A DNA stretch of 64,000 nt, taken from the IMG/VR virus record IMGVR_UViG_3300045988_159773; one strand, written 5' to 3'. The stretch comes from a virus. Positions within the stretch are counted from its first letter, which is position 1, and each line of letters opens with the position of its first letter. Shown here piece by piece: positions 51,003 to 61,090 of this stretch. Below the pieces are notes generated by a model. That model was not told the DNA's origin and searched no databases. It saw only the letters and a program-made list of their open reading frames with translations. The position numbers were made by a program, and so were the translations under genes.

Positions 51003-51466
51003 TTCAACCCCTCCAGCATCACCAGCAGAGCATCGAGGTCGTCCGCAATAAGGTCATACGAGCTCTCCGTGGTAATGCGTATTGGTCTACGAGCCGCCTT
51101 GTTCTCGATGACCTTGCTGTCGCTTGCATACACGAACTTTGGAGTGGACGAGTGAAAGTACACCACCACTCCGTAATGCCCGACGTGGGCGAATTGTGCC
51201 GATTCCTCGAAGTGCTCTAACTGACGGAACGCCGCGCACGAAAACCTCTCATCAGTCGTTGCTTTACATTCGAGTAGAGCTGTGAAGTGCTGGTCGAGGA
51301 CGATGAAGTCGCAAGGGTTAGAAACCCCCTTCCACGACCGTATTGTATGCAAACGCCAGAACTTGCAAGCTCTATGGGAAAGGGCGTCCCGCATCGAATT
51401 CTCGAGCAACGCCCCCAAATCGTTTGATTTTATTGGGCGTTCGCCAATCACTCGACTACTTCCCAT
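50999..51466 (-). CDS. RecU-like Holliday junction resolvase / PD-(D/E)XK nuclease
   Basis: 155 aa. ...SNPCDFIVLDQHFTALLECKAT... (D...E.K core). Confidence 0.5.
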   Translation of the reverse strand: MGSSRVIGERPIKSNDLGALLENSMRDALSHRACKFWRLHTIRSWKGVSNPCDFIVLDQHFTALLECKATTDERFSCAAFRQLEHFEESAQFAHVGHYGVVVYFHSSTPKFVYASDSKVIENKAARRPIRITTESSYDLIADDLDALLVMLEGLK

Positions 51467-51660
51467 CTGTCGCTGAACAGCTCAATCATGGTCTCTTTCC
51501 ATGGAACGCGACCGAAACGACTCTCCACATAGAGATACGGCGCGGTCATCTTGCTGTGTTCGTCGGGATACTGTGCACGAATCACCACATCAGGTGACCA
51601 CTGCGGCAACCGCATTCCCTTTCCCTTCTTTACCTGCTCAAAAGCGTCTCCGAAAACCAT
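51448..51660 (-). CDS. DUF2829 family protein (Tad2-like, candidate anti-Thoeris sponge)
   Basis: 70 aa. MVFGDAFEQVKKGKGMRLPQWSPDVVIRAQ...SKMTAPYLYVESRFGRVPWKETMIELFSDRWEVV fits the DUF2829 pattern (F..A...lk.Gk...R..W...; ...PW....dlla.DWe.v). Confidence 0.55.
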   Translation of the reverse strand: MVFGDAFEQVKKGKGMRLPQWSPDVVIRAQYPDEHSKMTAPYLYVESRFGRVPWKETMIELFSDRWEVVE

Positions 51661-51675
51661 AAGTCCTCCTTAATA

Positions 51676-52134
51676 TTAACCCCCAAACACCGAAACAACA
51701 TCAGTTATTCTCAACGGCTGAGGATAAACTCCACTTCCAGATGCATTAAGCATCACATTTGCTAATTTTGTTGCTCCTGTAATGCCTTGCAAAAACAATC
51801 GATTATTGTAAACCTTTACTTCAAAGAACACCGCAACATCAGAATCATTTTCTGTTCTTCCATACGCGATCCCCAAAATAGGCGCATAATCTGAATAAAG
51901 GCTCGACAGCACAGTGCCAAGTGTGCTAAAATCAGTTGCTGCGGTCGACACCTTACTCAGCACAGAAAACGACGTTGTTCTATAACTTCCACTGCCAGTG
52001 TAATCGATATTTATCGACACATTGTGCACATAAAGGGTCAACCCACCCCCGCCTCCTGGCGGCGGGTTGTCTACCGAGTATGGTTCCTCAGTAAGCCCCC
52101 TAGTTGTGAATTCGAGTTCCCTTCTTGTCTTCAT
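51676..52134 (-). CDS. hypothetical protein, paralog A
   Basis: 152 aa; ATG after TAGGAGGTCTTT. N-terminus MKTRRELEFTTRGLTEEPYSVDNPP is paralogous to 52144..52542. Confidence 0.6.
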   Translation of the reverse strand: MKTRRELEFTTRGLTEEPYSVDNPPPGGGGGLTLYVHNVSINIDYTGSGSYRTTSFSVLSKVSTAATDFSTLGTVLSSLYSDYAPILGIAYGRTENDSDVAVFFEVKVYNNRLFLQGITGATKLANVMLNASGSGVYPQPLRITDVVSVFGG

Positions 52135-52143
52135 AAAGACCTC

Positions 52144-52542
52144 CTAAAATGCTTCATACAGTATAATATCTCCGTTCGCCACGCCGAAACCAGATACAAA
52201 CTCAACCTGAAGTGTACTCCCGTCCCACTCTATATTAAGCTGTATACCCATCCAAAACTCAACATTGAGGTAGTTTAATCCAAGGCTTTGACCTTCTGCT
52301 GTACTGTCGAGCGTAAACTCGCGCACCACAGCTGCCCCACTATCTGTTAAACCTACGATTCTAAAAAGCACCCTAACCTTATCTAAATGCTCTCCTACAT
52401 CGATTCGAAAGTTCTTTAAATCCTCTATGGATTCGCTCAACAACGCACGGAGCAGTCTCGCGCGGGGTGGATTGCTCAATGTATAGGCTTCTTCAGTAAG
52501 CCCCCCCATAGATGTCCCTTCAATGGTTCTTCGTGTTTTCAT
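52144..52542 (-). CDS. hypothetical protein, paralog B
   Basis: ORF 52144..52632, but its first 30 codons overlap tRNA-Pro. ATG 52542 follows GGAGGAACTGAT. MKTRRTIEGTSMGGLTEEAYTLSNPP. Confidence 0.6.
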   Translation of the reverse strand: MKTRRTIEGTSMGGLTEEAYTLSNPPRARLLRALLSESIEDLKNFRIDVGEHLDKVRVLFRIVGLTDSGAAVVREFTLDSTAEGQSLGLNYLNVEFWMGIQLNIEWDGSTLQVEFVSGFGVANGDIILYEAF

Positions 52543-52559
52543 ATCAGTTCCTCCGATAT

Positions 52560-52569
52560 TTAAGATAAC
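52560..52569 (-). promoter_or_regulatory. late-promoter-like motif (GTTATCTTAA)
   Basis: Minus strand ACCACTGTTATCTTAAATATCGGAGGAACTGATATG, two nt after the tRNA CCA end. Confidence 0.4.
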
Positions 52570-52571
52570 AG

Positions 52572-52647
52572 TGGTCGGGGTGACAGGATTCGAACCTGCG
52601 ACATCGTGGTCCCAAACCACGCGCTCTACCATCTGCGCTACACCCCG
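52572..52647 (-). tRNA. tRNA-Pro (anticodon UGG), CCA encoded
   Basis: 76 nt folded by hand: CGGGGTG-TA-GCGC-AGATGGTA-GAGC-G-CGTGG-TTTGGGA-CCACG-ATGTC-GCAGG-TTCGAAT-CCTGT-CACCCCG-A-CCA. Canonical T-loop, U33, anticodon TGG. Confidence 0.9.
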
Positions 52648-52652
52648 AAATA

Positions 52653-52727
52653 TAGAACGCCTTCTAGAGGTTTAAGCTCTAAAGATACCTCATAACTTTA
52701 AAAGCCCTGGATTGTTCCAGCGTTCTA
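52653..52727 (-). other. 75-nt structured spacer closed by an 8-bp stem (TAGAACGC/GCGTTCTA)
   Basis: Fills the gap between the tmRNA-TLD-like RNA and tRNA-Pro. Internal hairpins TGGA-ACAA-TCCA and TTTAGAG-CTTAAAC-CTCTAGA. Confidence 0.4.
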
Positions 52728-52728
52728 C

Positions 52729-52810
52729 TGGTGGAGTCGGCGGGTACCGCCCCCGCGTCCGACAACCTCCATTTGTTGGTCTAGCTGCCGTCGAATCTTT
52801 TCACAACCCC
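52729..52810 (-). ncRNA. tmRNA tRNA-like-domain (TLD)-only RNA, 82 nt, CCA encoded
   Basis: GGGGTTGTGAAAAGATTCGACGG...GGACGCGGG-GGCGGTA-CCCGCC-GACTCC-ACCA. Compare E. coli ssrA ends GGGGCUGAUUCUGGAUUCGACGG and GGACGCGGGUUCAACUCCCGCCAGCUCCACCA. G3:U70 and A73 present. Only 27 nt (a capped GACCAAC/GTTGTC hairpin) lies between the halves. Confidence 0.6.
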
Positions 52811-52821
52811 TTACATATGTA

Positions 52822-53484
52822 CTATACAAGTTTTCTTCCTCTTTCAAAGCCCGCAGGAAAATTTCCCATAGAATCACTCCACAACTTATTAGAAGTGCCG
52901 TCAGTAATCCAATATTTCCCATACATACCATTCCTGCTACCCGAATGAGACTCTGACATCTTCTTCCTCGATTCTTCGGAAAACACAAAACCAGTAGTCC
53001 CTCTTGTCCTTATTTTGTTCCCGTCCTTATCACAAAAACAGCGAGAACGTTCCTCATCAGTCATCTCCCTTGCCTTCTTTTGATTAGCCTCTTTTAACCT
53101 CTGCAAAATCCGCTTCCTATATTCTGGGTCATTTTTCATTCTCAAATTGTGAGCAGAAAACGCCTTGCCGCCACCTTTGCCACTCCTGTTAATAACATCC
53201 CAAGAACCTCCACCATCATGCATATTCGTGCAATTTGGAAACTTCTTACCCTCAGCAATAAAATGTATTTCAAGAGCATTCAGCTCCTCTTCTGAGTATG
53301 CCCACGCGAGAATATCTCTTCTCAAACCAGCAGTGCCGTGCTTCTCAATATAATCAAAAACAAACTTGCCCGAACCAAAGTAAGATTCCACAACTATTGA
53401 ACTTTTCTTTCTGCCTATATAAAACCGCTCGCCGTAAGTTTTTGAGGGAATATATGTCTTATAAATATATCCATAACGCTCCAT
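52822..53484 (-). CDS. GIY-YIG homing endonuclease (with NUMOD3-like repeats)
   Basis: ORF 52822..53499. ATG 53484 (MERYGYIYKTY...ERFYIGRK) follows GTTATGTTAACT. ...GFVFSEESRKKMSESHSGSRNGMYGK. Sits between two tRNA-like genes. Confidence 0.8.
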   Translation of the reverse strand: MERYGYIYKTYIPSKTYGERFYIGRKKSSIVVESYFGSGKFVFDYIEKHGTAGLRRDILAWAYSEEELNALEIHFIAEGKKFPNCTNMHDGGGSWDVINRSGKGGGKAFSAHNLRMKNDPEYRKRILQRLKEANQKKAREMTDEERSRCFCDKDGNKIRTRGTTGFVFSEESRKKMSESHSGSRNGMYGKYWITDGTSNKLWSDSMGNFPAGFERGRKLV

Positions 53485-53486
53485 AG

Positions 53487-53496
53487 TTAACATAAC
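53487..53496 (-). promoter_or_regulatory. late-promoter-like motif (GTTATGTTAA), 2 nt from ATG
   Basis: Minus strand CTCTATGGTTATGTTAACTATGGAG; same spacing as at 29524 and 6401. Confidence 0.35.
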
Positions 53497-53522
53497 CATA
53501 GAGCGTCATAGAATTGAACTAT

Positions 53523-53601
53523 TGGTGGAGTGAGCTGGACTTTAACCAACAACAGTCTCGCGCAATCGCGGCGACTATTTTCACCGTTAAACTATCACCC
53601 C
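53523..53601 (-). ncRNA. alanine-identity tRNA-like RNA (79 nt) without a canonical anticodon loop, CCA encoded
   Basis: GGGGTGA-TA-GTTT-AACGGTGA-AAAT-AGTCGCCGCGATTGCGCGAGACT-GTT-GTTGG-TTAAAGT-CCAGC-TCACTCC-A-CCA. 7-bp acceptor stem with G3:U70, A73, D-arm and T-arm. The anticodon arm is replaced by a 23-nt hairpin (AGTC..CGCG-ATTG-CGCG..GACT). Confidence 0.5.
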
Positions 53602-59210: not shown

Positions 59211-59669
59211 TTACTCGTTAACTACTGTTACAAAACTGTCCACATAGCCCTGCAAGATTTCGAGTGCGTTTCCGATGACCGCGTTCTTTTCACGGATGAT
59301 GTACTCGGGAACGTGACGCTCGCGCTTCGCGTTTCTTTCAAGAGCCGTTTTCAAGCTCACTTTCACATAGCACAGCTCGACCCAGAAACCATACTCTTGC
59401 GCTTCCTTGATGATTCCGACAACGCGCTCCGCGTTCGTAGCCGTCGTATCATAAATAAAGTCTTCATCACCGCAAATCGCTTTCGTAAGCTCAATGCGCT
59501 CGAGCCTCTTGCTTTCTTCGTGAACCGCCGCAGGATTCAAAGGGTCGTATCCCTTGCACAACTTTTTCAACTCGTCGCAATCTATGGTTTTCAGACCTGC
59601 GTAACGTGCACGCGCTACCGTGCTTTTGCCCGCCCCGCTCAAACCTGCCATGATAACCATCTTTTTCAT
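59211..59669 (-). CDS. P-loop kinase (AAA_33 / zeta-toxin / polynucleotide-kinase-like)
   Basis: ORF 59211..59711; ATG 59669 follows GGAGGTTTCTT. MKKMVIMAGLSGAGKST Walker A. Confidence 0.55.
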   Translation of the reverse strand: MKKMVIMAGLSGAGKSTVARARYAGLKTIDCDELKKLCKGYDPLNPAAVHEESKRLERIELTKAICGDEDFIYDTTATNAERVVGIIKEAQEYGFWVELCYVKVSLKTALERNAKRERHVPEYIIREKNAVIGNALEILQGYVDSFVTVVNE

Positions 59670-59699
59670 AAGAAACCTCCAAACCTTGATTACGTGTTT

Positions 59700-59728
59700 A
59701 CTATACCACATTTTAATTGAGATTGCAA
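59700..59728 (-). promoter_or_regulatory. sigma-70-type promoter, cassette copy 3 (TTGCAA-17-TATAGT, TG extended)
   Basis: Minus strand AAACGCTTGCAATCTCAATTAAAATGTGGTATAGT with upstream TTTTAATTAAAAT. Confidence 0.65.
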
Positions 59729-59800: not shown

Positions 59801-61090
59801 TCAATAAACTGATGTTTCGTCCTTGTCTGTTCGAATGATGTCAAGCCAGATTGGGAAACGGAGCGAACGCGAACCGTCCTTGTCGTACGATACCTCGAAA
59901 CATTTCAGCTCGACAATCTTGCCGATGAGCAGTTCGGGGTGCGCCCAGTACTTGTCACGCTGCTCGAACGTGAACCCAGAGCCGCATTTGGACGTATATG
60001 TCTTGCCGTCGATGTCGAACTCAACGTGGATACCGCCGAGAGTGCCGACCAGAGCTCCGATGCCTTCGAACACTCCCGTCACCCGCGCATCGACCGTCTT
60101 GAACTTCTTGACTTTGAGCAGGTCTCTCGTGCGCTTCGCCTGGTAAGGCGCGTCAGCCACATTAAGCATCAAGCCCTCCCAGCCGTTCTCCTGAGCGATA
60201 GCCGCCCACTCATTAATCTTCGATTGGTCGCTCCCCTCGTACAGGATGTCAACATTTGTAACCCACGACAGCTCACCATCCGCCGCAATACTCGCACTGA
60301 GTTTATGCTTACGCTCAATGCAAGTCTCCGCCGAGTATCCGTCAAGGAAGTCGCTTATCGGTAAACGGTCAAATACATGATAGACCAACCCCGACTTAAC
60401 GCCCTTGCTGTTTGCACTCGATACTGTAGCCCTGAACACATCTCCAGATGCGCCGTCTGCCTTGGCAATCAGCTCTCCGTCATATGCAACTCCGCGCTCT
60501 GCTATTGAAAGCAAGTCCGCCGCGACATCGGGAACCTCGCCGTAGTCCTGACCGTTGCGAGTAAAGAACTGCACCTCTCCGTTGTCGTGGACGAACGCCA
60601 CACAGCGAACCCCGTCCAACTTTTGCGTAACGATGAACTCCTTGCCGTCGAGGTGCTTCGGATTGTCGGCGAACGACTCCGCCAGCATTACTGCGAATAC
60701 CTTAATAAAGCCCTTGCCGTAAATCTTGTTCACCGTTGACGTATCAACACCGAATTTGAGCGATTTGGTGAACAACTGCAACAGCCAATCTCTATGCTCT
60801 GGAAAGCCGTTTGCATAATGGGAAACCACCGCAACGTCCTCCATTCTGCCTGTGTTATGCTTACGCAAATAGTTTAGAACTCCAACCAAGTCGAATGAAC
60901 GCTCTTGCCGAATATTTCCATACTTTTCGATTTTGTTCATCGAAATTCCTGTCACGACCATCGGGTCGAGTAAGAACTTGAGAACCTCAGTCCAAAGCTC
61001 GTTGTCCTTGTTCGCTTCGAGTATCGCCGCCTTTTCATTTCGGCTCGACGTCGCTTGCAGTTGCTCAATTATTTCCTTGATTCTTTCCAT
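59801..61090 (-). CDS. ATP-dependent DNA ligase
   Basis: 429 aa. VTQKLDGVRCV (motif I KxDG), WEGLMLN (motif IV), DLLKVKKF (motif V). Confidence 0.85.
   Translation of the reverse strand: MERIKEIIEQLQATSSRNEKAAILEANKDNELWTEVLKFLLDPMVVTGISMNKIEKYGNIRQERSFDLVGVLNYLRKHNTGRMEDVAVVSHYANGFPEHRDWLLQLFTKSLKFGVDTSTVNKIYGKGFIKVFAVMLAESFADNPKHLDGKEFIVTQKLDGVRCVAFVHDNGEVQFFTRNGQDYGEVPDVAADLLSIAERGVAYDGELIAKADGASGDVFRATVSSANSKGVKSGLVYHVFDRLPISDFLDGYSAETCIERKHKLSASIAADGELSWVTNVDILYEGSDQSKINEWAAIAQENGWEGLMLNVADAPYQAKRTRDLLKVKKFKTVDARVTGVFEGIGALVGTLGGIHVEFDIDGKTYTSKCGSGFTFEQRDKYWAHPELLIGKIVELKCFEVSYDKDGSRSLRFPIWLDIIRTDKDETSVY

What the first reader, a model, noticed from the sequence alone, without database searches (positions are those of the whole stretch)
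52729..52810. 82-nt RNA resembling the tRNA-like domain of tmRNA with no mRNA-like (tag) domain
Seen in sequence:
- The minus strand reads GGGGTTGTGAAAAGATTCGACGG-CAGCTAGACCAACAAATGGAGGTTGTC-GGACGCGGGGGCGGTACCCGCCGACTCCACCA.
- The 5' 23 nt and 3' 32 nt line up with the two ends of bacterial tmRNA (E. coli GGGGCUGAUUCUGGAUUCGACGG ... GGACGCGGGUUCAACUCCCGCCAGCUCCACCA).
- The shared elements are GAUUCGACGG at the same offset, CGGACGCGGG / CCCGCC T-stem strands, the G3:U70 pair, A73 and an encoded CCA.
- Where a tmRNA has about 250-300 nt of pseudoknots and the tag ORF, only a 27-nt capped hairpin is present (GACCAAC/GTTGTC with one bulge).
- The T-loop is GGCGGUA rather than UUCRANU.
- An alternative GGCGG-TAC-CCGCC hairpin competes with the T-arm.

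Inference: this could be a charged-but-non-coding TLD that titrates SmpB, EF-Tu or AlaRS, or interferes with host trans-translation. Alternatively it could be a relic. It is not an attP-type ssrA 3' fragment, because both halves are present and joined.
Basis: partly seen in the sequence, partly recalled or inferred. Interest (0 to 1): 0.85.

Follow-up and report, generated by a model that had tools for sequence, protein, structure and literature searches.

The report
Phage mini-tmRNA without tag template
An 82-base gene in a human-gut phage encodes only the tRNA-like head of the bacterial ribosome-rescue RNA (tmRNA), without its message part. It belongs to a large, conserved and almost unannotated family of phage RNAs, described so far from a single mycobacteriophage, that probably blocks or diverts the host's rescue-and-tagging system.

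Summary
Window 52729-52810 (-) reads exactly as reported. Rfam's tmRNA model aligns both ends across a 306-position deletion, scoring 39.7 bits against a threshold of 47.

It is neither a relic nor a chance match. I built a covariance model from 18 other tRNA-like-domain (TLD)-only elements found in viral contigs. That model scores the window element 58.0 bits. The one published case, mycobacteriophage DS6A "TLD only", scores 58.8.

- All helices covary.
- G3:U70 is essentially invariant and A73 is invariant or nearly so.
- ARAGORN calls none of them.

Relatives of this roughly 96-kb gut phage carry divergent, compensated copies at the same locus.

The odd GGCGGUA T-loop is a natural variant found in bona fide Saccharibacteria and permuted (mostly alphaproteobacterial) tmRNAs.

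Best reading: an alanine-accepting, SmpB-binding tmRNA mimic with no tag template that competes with host tmRNA. This mechanism is inferred from published TLD experiments and was not tested here.

Verdict: a new member of a known but barely described kind, and the family's breadth appears unreported.

The parts
52729..52810 (-). Mini-tmRNA gene (TLD-only tmRNA), 82 nt
   Evidence: RF00023 39.7 bits spanning model positions 1-374 with the body deleted; TLD-only model R1 58.0 bits; sequence read.
52804..52810 (-). Acceptor stem, 5' strand GGGGUUG (RNA positions 1-7), with G3 of the G3:U70 pair
   Evidence: Pairs 7/7 with CGACUCC. In family alignments G3:U70 is present in 49/50 and 70/70 sequences.
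52790..52803 (-). D-loop analogue UGAAAAGAUUCGAC (positions 8-21), with the tmRNA-specific UCGAC motif
   Evidence: UCGAC was part of both collection search patterns, so its invariance in those alignments is imposed. Unimposed support: it is retained in the syntenic clade orthologs and in DS6A, which were not found by pattern. UUCGAC is upper-case consensus in RF00023.
52760..52790 (-). P2 helix CGGCAGCU/GGUUGUCG (positions 21-28 with 44-51), closed by a 15-nt cap AGACCAACAAAUGGA containing a 3-bp CCA/UGG hairpin. This replaces the roughly 300-nt pseudoknot and tag region.
   Evidence: MFE fold. The P2 pairs were not used to select family members, yet 6 of 7 show compensatory changes. Among syntenic orthologs 6 of 8 P2 pairs covary.
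52740..52759 (-). GAC linker plus T arm GCGGG-GGCGGUA-CCCGC (positions 52-71)
   Evidence: The identical T arm occurs in Saccharibacteria one-piece tmRNAs and in permuted tmRNAs of Alphaproteobacteria, Oceanococcaceae, Ectothiorhodospiraceae and phages. T-stem pairs covary in the family.
52729..52739 (-). Acceptor stem, 3' strand CGACUCC (positions 72-78), discriminator A (79) and encoded CCA (80-82)
   Evidence: Read from sequence. A at the discriminator position in all 43 first-set members and in at least 69 of 73 second-set members.
52648..52728 (-). Structured 81-nt spacer RNA between the mini-tmRNA and tRNA-Pro (context; kind unknown)
   Evidence: Fold z-score -2.41. A 46-nt core is 89% conserved in L270, and the closing stem is compensated: AGAACGC/GCGUUCU versus GAAAUGGC/GCCAUUUC.
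52572..52647 (-). tRNA-Pro(UGG), immediately downstream on the same strand (context)
   Evidence: ARAGORN; RF00005 62.8 bits.
52822..53499 (-). Homing endonuclease gene (NUMOD3; PHROG 314), ending 11 nt upstream of the mini-tmRNA. Part of a cassette absent from a near-identical phage.
   Evidence: Pfam and PHROGs. Comparison of window with L270.
53523..53601 (-). Second alanine-identity tRNA-like gene (G3:U70, A73, CCA) with no anticodon loop (context)
   Evidence: RF00005 42.2 bits in permissive mode; fold; homolog in L270 with a compensated hairpin.

Best explanation
The element is a gene for a TLD-only tmRNA. It has the acceptor stem, D-loop analogue, a short P2 helix and the T arm of tmRNA, and a 15-nt cap where the pseudoknots and tag reading frame should be. 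It belongs to a large phage-borne family whose only described member is mycobacteriophage DS6A.

Proposed mechanism (inferred):
1. It is transcribed with the neighbouring tRNA-like genes and trimmed like a tRNA: RNase P at G1, with the CCA already encoded.
2. Host AlaRS charges it with alanine through G3:U70 and A73.
3. Host SmpB binds it through the conserved UCGAC/GGAC elbow and P2 neck.
4. As Ala-TLD-SmpB-EF-Tu it competes with host tmRNA for SmpB and for stalled ribosomes.
5. Because it has no resume codon, no tag and no stop codon, nascent chains are not ssrA-tagged for proteolysis. Host trans-translation is therefore blocked or diverted during infection.

Shown here: the anatomy, family membership, selection on structure and on the alanine identity elements, and syntenic conservation. 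Inferred: expression, charging, SmpB binding and the effect on the host.
For: - Both halves align to RF00023 with the body deleted.
- Model R1, built from 18 other TLD-only elements, scores the window 58.0 bits and DS6A 58.8 bits.
R1 confirms 50 and 86 hits at E<1e-6.
- Pairing is 94.8% and 96.5%, against 72% and 67% in shuffles, with 15 and 16 of 21 pairs carrying compensatory changes. Acceptor and T-stem pairing were not imposed by the search patterns: 64 of 124 and 90 of 162 pattern matches pair perfectly, where chance predicts about 2 and far less than 1 (my calculation).
- G3:U70 is present in 49/50 and 70/70 sequences. The discriminator A is present in all 43 first-set members and in at least 69 of 73 second-set members.
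- Relatives of this phage (PolA 64-100% identical) carry an R1-positive copy at the same locus with 12 of 20 pairs compensated.
- The same T arm functions in real tmRNAs.
- There is no conserved reading frame or stop in the cap (read from the sequences).
- Literature: a DS6A-like TLD molecule strongly inhibits tmRNA in E. coli (PMC4131195, PMC11915505, citing Mao 2009). Ribosomes transfer peptide to a TLD-only truncated tmRNA (PMC3895274, citing Shimizu and Ueda 2006).
Against: - There are no expression data. No sigma-70-like promoter lies directly upstream on the minus strand, so co-transcription is assumed.
- The Rfam score is below the gathering threshold, and the single-sequence fold z-score is only -1.86.
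- A competing GACCAAC/GUUGUC helix exists in this copy.
- Four clade relatives (L261, L262, L266, L267) have no R1 hit, so the gene is accessory.
- No partner protein such as SmpB, Pth or ArfB was found in the window or as a recurrent neighbour.
- The inhibition experiment is known to me only through citing papers. It reports inhibition whether or not the molecule is chargeable, which fits poorly with the near-absolute conservation of G3:U70 if titration of SmpB alone were the function.
- The benefit to a phage of blocking trans-translation is not established.
Confidence: 0.6

Rival explanations
1. Tag-free ribosome rescue for the phage's benefit. The charged mini-tmRNA with SmpB enters stalled ribosomes and accepts the nascent chain. 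The peptidyl-Ala-TLD then drops off or is hydrolysed by Pth or ArfB-type factors. Ribosomes are freed without marking phage proteins for degradation, as proposed for the CDS-less mitochondrial tmRNAs. This overlaps with the best explanation and differs in the outcome: productive rescue rather than inhibition.
For: - The strict conservation of G3:U70 and A73 argues that charging, and hence action on the ribosome, matters.
- Peptidyl transfer to a TLD-only tmRNA has been observed (PMC3895274, citing Shimizu and Ueda 2006).
- CDS-less organellar tmRNAs that co-occur with SmpB are thought to help with incomplete mRNAs (PMC11915505).
Against: - No release mechanism is encoded nearby: no RF-1, ArfB or Pth domain in the window ORFs scanned.
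- The E. coli experiment reported inhibition, not rescue (PMC4131195).
- There is no direct evidence that peptidyl-TLD is recycled.
Confidence: 0.22
2. A decoy or sponge for something other than the rescue pathway. Candidates are a host defence factor that senses or cleaves tmRNA or tRNA-like RNAs (for example systems with SmpB-like SPB domains), or another enzyme that uses alanyl-tRNA acceptor arms. The mini-tmRNA would then be one of several anticodon-less alanine acceptors made by the phage.
For: - The same locus holds a second alanine-identity tRNA-like gene without an anticodon loop.
- Relatives carry further such elements, down to a 24-nt G3:U70 microhelix with ACCA.
- The cassette is swapped between near-identical phages. 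An anti-Thoeris-like Tad2 gene lies 1 kb away. Both are typical of counter-defence regions.
- CoCoNuT restriction systems carry SmpB-like domains predicted to bind tmRNA (PMC11090510).
Against: - The argument is purely circumstantial and no defence system is known to be neutralised by a TLD.
- The tmRNA-specific UCGAC and GGAC motifs are retained even in members not found by pattern (DS6A and the syntenic clade orthologs). This points to the genuine SmpB-tmRNA interface rather than a generic acceptor arm.
Confidence: 0.1
3. A decaying relic: a full-length phage tmRNA gene that lost its middle by deletion and is on its way out.
For: - The Rfam score is below threshold and ARAGORN is silent.
- The gene is absent from some relatives.
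- A homing endonuclease gene sits next to it.
Against: - The family has at least 116 distinct members of uniform size (67-95 nt, median 82 in the second set) with compensatory changes in every helix and conserved identity elements.
- Five syntenic orthologs differ at many paired positions yet keep pairing.
- No relative carries a full-length tmRNA at the locus.
Confidence: 0.03
4. An aberrant tRNA, or an attP-type ssrA fragment used for integration.
For: - It lies beside tRNA-Pro.
- Temperate phages often carry the 3' part of ssrA at attP (PMC10865867, PMC9004378).
Against: - There is no anticodon arm, and no tRNA call by ARAGORN or by Rfam at this site.
- Both tmRNA halves are present and pair with each other.
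- No integrase was found among the window ORFs scanned, and the replication gene set is of the lytic type.
- In DS6A the element lies about 10 kb from the integrase gene.
Confidence: 0.02

Closest known systems
Mycobacteriophage DS6A 'TLD only' tmRNA (tmRNA Website tmID 11587; Phage__Mycobacterium.9)
   Same: Phage-encoded, about 83 nt. It has an acceptor stem with G3:U70 and A73, UCGAC, a short P2 helix capped by a small hairpin, a T arm and no tag template. It gets nearly the same score on model R1 (58.8 versus 58.0 bits) and is not next to the integrase gene.
   Different: Different phage lineage and host (Mycobacterium versus an unknown human-gut bacterium). In DS6A the CCA is not encoded, the T-loop is the canonical UUCGAUU, and the linker reads GCAC where the window has GGAC. 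The window copy has the GGCGGUA T-loop and a looser cap (AGACCAACAAAUGGA versus AAAACCGCACGCGGUA).
CDS-less organellar tmRNAs (jakobid, oomycete and Provora mitochondria, Rfam RF02544; Mallomonadaceae plastids, about 65 bp)
   Same: Natural tmRNA derivatives reduced to little more than the TLD, with no tag reading frame (PMC11915505).
   Different: They are organellar genes that work with a nucleus-encoded SmpB as the cell's own system, not viral genes acting on a host that has its own full tmRNA. RF02544 did not appear among the hits at this site.
Standard one-piece tmRNA (Rfam RF00023)
   Same: The two ends align to the model. The acceptor stem, UUCGAC, GGACGCGGG/CCCGCC and CUCCACCA all match. 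The T arm is identical to that of Saccharibacteria tmRNAs.
   Different: It lacks the resume codon, tag ORF and all pseudoknots (306 model positions) and scores below the gathering threshold.
Acceptor piece of two-piece (permuted) tmRNA (RF01849, RF04321)
   Same: A short RNA carrying the T arm and the 3' acceptor strand. Many phage copies have the identical GGCGGUA T arm.
   Different: In permuted genes the 5' acceptor strand lies downstream on a separate coding piece with a tag ORF. Here the 5' strand is upstream and covalently joined through a capped P2 helix, and no coding piece follows; the RF04321 hit is partial, 30.4 bits.
Engineered TLD constructs used in structural and kinetic work (Gutmann 2003, Bessho 2007, Shimizu and Ueda 2006, as cited in PMC11090510 and PMC3895274)
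   Same: Same design: acceptor stem, D-loop analogue, truncated P2 closed by a loop, and T arm. Such constructs are reported to bind SmpB and to accept peptide on the ribosome.
   Different: Those are laboratory truncations. This one is a natural, evolutionarily maintained gene.

Membership tests
TLD-only phage tmRNA (DS6A type) | 7-bp acceptor stem with G3:U70, discriminator A73 and a CCA end or its position | tested here: met
   GGGGUUG/CGACUCC + A + CCA. Family: G3:U70 in 49/50 and 70/70.
TLD-only phage tmRNA (DS6A type) | tmRNA-specific D-loop analogue (UCGAC) and a GGAC-type linker flanking P2 | tested here: met
   Both are present at the expected offsets in the window copy. Their invariance in the collected alignments is imposed, because both search patterns required them. 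Among members not found by pattern, UCGAC is kept in DS6A and in all five clade orthologs. The linker is GGAC in four of the five orthologs, GGAU in L256 and GCAC in DS6A.
TLD-only phage tmRNA (DS6A type) | P2 helix closed by a short cap, with no resume codon, tag ORF or pseudoknots | tested here: met
   There are 29 nt between UCGAC and GGAC, forming an 8-bp helix plus a 15-nt cap. A UAG or UAA seen in some members is neither in a conserved frame nor conserved (sequences).
TLD-only phage tmRNA (DS6A type) | Scores with a covariance model of the family as well as the type member does | tested here: met
   R1, built without the window or DS6A, scores the window 58.0 bits and DS6A 58.8 bits.
TLD-only phage tmRNA (DS6A type) | Encoded in a phage genome, not at an attP site | tested here: met
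   Portal, terminase, PolA and other phage genes are present and no integrase was found among the ORFs scanned. The source is a roughly 96-kb human-gut viral contig.
TLD-only phage tmRNA (DS6A type) | Is alanylated, binds SmpB and inhibits host tmRNA | not testable with these tools
   Reported only for a DS6A-like molecule in E. coli, through citing papers (PMC4131195, PMC11915505).
tmRNA, standard (Rfam RF00023) | Score at or above the curated gathering threshold | tested here: not met
   39.7 bits versus 47. The related mini in L001 does pass, at 68.4 bits.
tmRNA, standard (Rfam RF00023) | mRNA-like domain with resume codon, tag reading frame and stop, plus pseudoknots | tested here: not met
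   306 model positions are deleted. ARAGORN finds no tag peptide.
tmRNA, standard (Rfam RF00023) | tRNA-like domain formed by the 5' and 3' ends | tested here: met
   Both ends align with posterior probabilities near 1.
Two-piece (permuted) tmRNA (RF04321, RF01849) | Acceptor piece followed downstream by a coding piece that starts with the 5' acceptor strand | tested here: not met
   The 5' strand is upstream and joined. Downstream lie an 81-nt spacer and tRNA-Pro. The RF04321 hit is partial, 30.4 bits, and runs off into tRNA-Pro.
tRNA (RF00005) | Cloverleaf with an anticodon arm and a 7-nt anticodon loop | tested here: not met
   No ARAGORN call. tmRNA outscored any clan member at this site. 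ARAGORN of 116 family members as tRNA.
attP-type ssrA fragment | Only the 3' part of ssrA, next to an integrase gene | tested here: not met
   Both halves are present and paired, and no integrase was found among the ORFs scanned.

The most novel reading that the evidence does not exclude
TLD-only tmRNAs are not a curiosity of one mycobacteriophage. They would be a widespread phage device against host trans-translation or tmRNA-linked defence, invisible to standard annotation. In this human-gut phage clade the mini-tmRNA is one element of a swappable, homing-endonuclease-associated cassette of anticodon-less alanine acceptors. The cassette combines a tmRNA-derived mini, a truncated alanine-identity tRNA-like RNA resembling tRNA-Ala, and in relatives even a G3:U70 microhelix. 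This implies that phages exploit AlaRS charging without decoding.
Probability: 0.3. Interest if true: 0.8.

Novelty: new member of a known kind. Interest (0 to 1): 0.55.

Why it matters
Trans-translation is nearly universal in bacteria and is a drug target. A natural RNA that phages maintain to engage AlaRS, SmpB or stalled ribosomes without tagging would be a ready-made inhibitor or probe of that pathway. It would also be a new item in the phage-host conflict over the translation apparatus.

Practically, censuses of phage tmRNAs rely on ARAGORN (PMC9004378), which calls none of the 116 family members tested here. This class is therefore missing from current annotations, including those of abundant human-gut phages.

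The covariance model and alignments made here (R1, A3, A5) would allow a full census.

Tried and rejected
- BLAST of the region and of the 82-mer against cultured phages found only tRNA-Pro matches and 3' T-arm matches. The hits I followed up (Stenotrophomonas, Xanthomonas, Alcaligenes, Bordetella and Tunturiibacter phages, and a Mexican faecal contig) are permuted or full-length tmRNAs, with R1 scores of only 20-36 bits.
- BLAST with DS6A's element and with a typical member found no further cultured-phage minis.
- The search for related loci with PolA returned only the source contig. Relatives were reached through the protein database instead.
- The single metagenome scan added only one new member, L254.
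- I looked for a conserved partner protein by clustering ORFs within 4 kb of 72 family members. Only lineage-specific neighbours came up: HNH endonuclease, HTH, DUF1376 and FEN/RNase H.
- I considered that UAG or UAA after the P2 5' strand might end a mini-tag such as GGC AGC UAG. I rejected this because the triplet is CAA, GAA or AAA in other members and is not in a fixed frame (sequences).
- I considered host inference from the GGCGGUA T-loop (Saccharibacteria, Alphaproteobacteria). I rejected this because a phage with identical PolA (L270) carries an allele with a canonical UUCGACU loop.
- Mao et al. 2009 could not be read. Its results are cited second-hand.

Full report
**1. The observation.**
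- ARAGORN reports only tRNA-Pro(UGG) at 52572-52647. Rfam at gathering thresholds reports only that tRNA.
- In permissive mode on 52500-53000, Rfam's tmRNA model RF00023 matches precisely 52729-52810 (-), from model position 1 to 374, with 306 internal positions deleted. The score is 39.7 bits against a gathering score of 47, with E 1.6e-14 for that search.
- The aligned parts are the acceptor stem, UUCGAC, GGACGCGGG/CCCGCC and CUCCACCA.
- The minimum-free-energy fold is a 7-bp acceptor stem, an 8-bp helix next to UCGAC and GGAC capped by 15 nt, and a 5-bp T stem with a 7-nt loop. Its energy is -30.8 kcal/mol and its z-score is only -1.86.

**2. The 'odd' T-loop is a natural variant.**
The exact T arm GGACGCGGG-GGCGGUR-CCCGCC occurs in 42 viral contigs and 73 genome contigs.
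- ARAGORN calls permuted tmRNAs with tag peptides in 32 of the 123 loci held at that point, which also included loci fetched for other reasons. They come from Alphaproteobacteria, Oceanococcaceae, Ectothiorhodospiraceae and many phages.
- The many Candidatus Saccharibacteria loci carry standard one-piece tmRNAs with this T arm, scoring 58-71 bits on RF00023.
- Among all those loci, only the window's source contig (IMGVR_UViG_3300045988_156059) has the 5' half within 50 nt upstream.

**3. It belongs to a family.**
A first pattern joining the two halves across a short gap found a second, unrelated TLD-only element in two viral contigs (L001 and L003). It scores 68.4 bits on RF00023, above threshold. 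The T-arm scan revealed a third in L024 and L048.

- Of 124 matches, 64 have a perfect 7-bp acceptor stem at the right offset, although the pattern did not ask for one. Chance predicts about 2 (my calculation: 14 offsets times (6/16)^7).
- This gave 43 distinct sequences of 69-94 nt.

- It gave 73 further distinct sequences with perfect T and acceptor stems, 67-95 nt, median 82.
- All have G3:U70, and at least 69 of the 73 have A at the discriminator position.

ARAGORN calls none of the 116 distinct sequences as tRNA or tmRNA.

**4. Structure is under selection.**
I aligned 18 members, excluding the window and DS6A (A2).
- On a hand-drawn P1/P2/cap/T-arm structure, 92.9% of cells pair, against 76.6% in shuffles and about 50% in slid controls.
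- 6 of 7 P2 pairs carry compensatory changes, and P2 played no part in selecting members.

I built model R1 from this alignment. It scores the window element 58.0 bits (E about 3e-11). It also locates DS6A's element at JN698994 28478-28560, scoring 58.8 bits.

Alignments fitted to the model, which lean towards its structure, show:

| Alignment | Distinct members | Cells paired | Pairs with compensatory change | G3:U70 |
|---|---|---|---|---|
| A3 | 50 | 94.8% | 15 of 21 | 49/50 |
| A5 | 70 | 96.5% | 16 of 21 | 70/70 |

In A5, four of five T-stem pairs covary. UCGAC and GGAC are invariant in these alignments, but both were part of the search patterns. UCGAC is kept in DS6A and in the syntenic clade orthologs, which were not found by pattern. 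The linker is GGAC in four of five orthologs, GGAU in L256 and GCAC in DS6A.

None of the 73 bacterial loci fetched for the T arm contains a member.

**5. Its own lineage keeps it.**
The window is a tailed phage with terminase, portal, PolA, primase, PIF1 helicase, FEN, ligase and SbcCD. Among the ORFs scanned there is no integrase, SmpB, RtcB, Pth or AlaRS. Its PolA is identical to one on a 95.8-kb human-gut metagenome contig.

Relatives, with PolA identity to the window, carry an R1-positive element between the conserved 114/115-aa gene and tRNA genes:

| Loci | PolA identity | R1 bits |
|---|---|---|
| L270, L272 | 100% | 59.0 |
| L263, L264 | 84% | 58.0 |
| L258 | 76% | 70.1 |
| L256 | 75% | 56.5 |
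| L259, L260, L265 | 70% | 56.5 |
| L268 | 64% | 59.9 |

- The L263 and L264 copies are identical in sequence to the window's.
- The five distinct orthologs differ widely. Their acceptor stems read GGGGUUG, GGGGCAU, GGGGCUG, GGGGUGC and GGGGCAG. Their T-loops read GGCGGUA, UUCGACU, UUUGAUU and UUCGAAU.
- Yet 92.9% of cells pair, and 12 of 20 pairs show compensatory changes.
- Four relatives (L261, L262, L266, L267) have no R1 hit, so the gene is accessory.
- No relative has a full-length tmRNA at the locus.

**6. What it is not.**
- It is not a standard tmRNA: there is no tag frame and no pseudoknots, and the score is below the Rfam threshold.
- It is not a two-piece tmRNA: the 5' strand is upstream and covalently joined, and no coding piece follows.
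- It is not a tRNA: there is no anticodon arm.
- It is not an attP fragment: both halves are present and no integrase was found. In DS6A the element lies about 10 kb from the integrase gene.
- It is not a relic, given sections 3 to 5.
- A stop triplet after the P2 5' strand (UAG here) is not conserved in identity or frame across members, so a mini-tag is unlikely (sequences).

**7. How it most likely works (inferred).**
- The literature records one phage case. [quoted passage not shown] 2009). The 2025 tmRNA database paper repeats this and lists CDS-less mitochondrial and plastid forms (PMC11915505).
- Peptidyl transfer to a TLD-only truncated tmRNA has been observed in vitro (PMC3895274, citing Shimizu and Ueda 2006).
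- The family keeps the AlaRS identity set (G3:U70, A73). The tmRNA-specific elbow motifs are also retained; UCGAC holds even in members not found by pattern.
- From this I infer a tRNA-like processed RNA that is alanylated, binds host SmpB, and competes with host tmRNA for SmpB and for stalled ribosomes. Because there is no resume codon, nascent chains are not ssrA-tagged.
- Whether the net effect is inhibition or tag-free rescue cannot be decided here.
- The near-absolute conservation of G3:U70 argues that charging matters. That favours action on the ribosome over pure SmpB titration.
- I put identity as a TLD-only tmRNA at above 0.9 and the mechanism at about 0.6.

**8. Context that may matter.**
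- The gene sits in a cluster on the minus strand. In order: a 79-nt alanine-identity tRNA-like gene without an anticodon loop (53523-53601; RF00005 42.2 bits), a homing endonuclease gene (52822-53499), the mini-tmRNA, an 81-nt structured spacer, and tRNA-Pro.
- Against L270, the window is 99.4% identical down to 53523 and 97% identical from 52650 onwards. The 872 nt in between (endonuclease, mini-tmRNA and spacer) are replaced in L270 by 555 unrelated nt carrying a different mini-tmRNA allele. Only a 46-nt spacer core is shared.
- Relatives carry further G3:U70/ACCA elements without anticodons.
- No protein partner recurs next to family members across lineages. Only 9 of 69 members lie within 500 nt of a tRNA gene.

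**9. Novelty and verdict.**
- The kind is known: a phage TLD-only tmRNA, DS6A. The window element is a new member, from a human-gut phage and with the GGCGGUA T-loop.
- What I could not find in the held literature is any account of the family's breadth. The 2025 database paper still cites DS6A alone. A census of phage tmRNAs used ARAGORN (PMC9004378), which misses all members.
- I cannot exclude reports in journals that are not held.
- Interest is moderate at 0.55. This is not a new principle, but it is a conserved, widespread and testable phage RNA aimed at a core host pathway.

Noticed in passing
window 53523-53601 (-): A 79-nt tRNA-like gene, GGGGUGA...UCACUCCACCA, with G3:U70, A73 and CCA. 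It has a long hairpin (7+4 bp, AUUG loop) in place of D and anticodon arms, and a UUAAAGU T-loop. RF00005 scores it 42.2 bits in permissive mode only, and ARAGORN misses it. The L270 homolog has a compensated hairpin and a canonical T-loop. A 64-nt relative in L267 (6377-6440) looks like a truncated tRNA-Ala(UGC).
   Followed up: partly
window 52648-52728 (-): The 81-nt 'spacer' between the mini-tmRNA and tRNA-Pro is a structured RNA (z -2.41). Its 46-nt core is 89% conserved in L270 and its closing stem is compensated. It has no Rfam match and its kind is unknown.
   Followed up: partly
window 52651-53522 versus L270 6185-6739: Cassette swap between phages with identical PolA. The endonuclease, mini-tmRNA and spacer of the window are replaced in L270 by unrelated sequence with another mini-tmRNA allele and no endonuclease. 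The boundaries lie at the 3' end of the tRNA-like gene (53523) and at the 5' end of tRNA-Pro (52650). This suggests homing-endonuclease-linked allele replacement.
   Followed up: partly
L268 8383-8406; L266 7680-7735; L262 13086-13162 and 13231-13309: Clade relatives carry further anticodon-less alanine-identity acceptors. These are a 24-nt microhelix GGGGGUG-GUAAAA-CACUCC-ACCA, a 56-nt acceptor + hairpin + T-arm RNA, and two elements of 77-79 nt. One of the latter has the same acceptor stem as the window mini-tmRNA but lacks UCGAC and GGAC.
   Followed up: partly
window 51448-51660 (-): By synteny with relatives, this 70-aa gene is the Tad2-like (PF11195, anti-Thoeris sponge family) gene, about 1 kb downstream of the RNA cluster.
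   Followed up: no
window 59211-59711 (-) and 59801-61090 (-): An AAA_33/Zeta-toxin-type kinase lies next to an ATP-dependent ligase that has a weak RNA_ligase hit. This could be a kinase-ligase nucleic-acid repair pair.
   Followed up: no
window 52144-52542 (-) and 51676-52134 (-): Two adjacent paralogous ORFs with similar N-termini (MKTRR...GLTEE.Y...NPP) and no Pfam or PHROG match, immediately downstream of tRNA-Pro.
   Followed up: no
window 53470-53512 (-): A 20-bp hairpin overlaps the start of the endonuclease ORF. The terminator scan flagged it.
   Followed up: no
L051-L123 (Candidatus Saccharibacteria loci, e.g. L080 1418-1822): Saccharibacteria one-piece tmRNAs carry the GGCGGUA T-loop. 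ARAGORN does not call them, although RF00023 scores them 58-71 bits.
   Followed up: partly
L247 1118-1465 (Tunturiibacter phage Tunturi_4): A gene annotated as an RF-1 domain peptide chain release factor (ArfB-like) lies immediately upstream of the T-arm/3'-acceptor tmRNA match in that phage (R1 only 26.3 bits; probably the acceptor piece of a permuted tmRNA, not confirmed).
   Followed up: no
L170 5-84 and 1317-1395: One viral contig carries two different TLD-only mini-tmRNAs 1.2 kb apart.
   Followed up: no
L024 3627-4233 (-): The viral contig that carries the mini-tmRNA with the T arm identical to the window's also encodes a ROOL RNA (319.8 bits) and at least nine tRNAs.
   Followed up: no
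L001 10069-10239 and window 52572-52810: In two unrelated phages the mini-tmRNA is followed by tRNA-Pro(UGG), 7 nt and 82 nt downstream respectively. Across the family only 9 of 69 members lie within 500 nt of any tRNA gene.
   Followed up: partly
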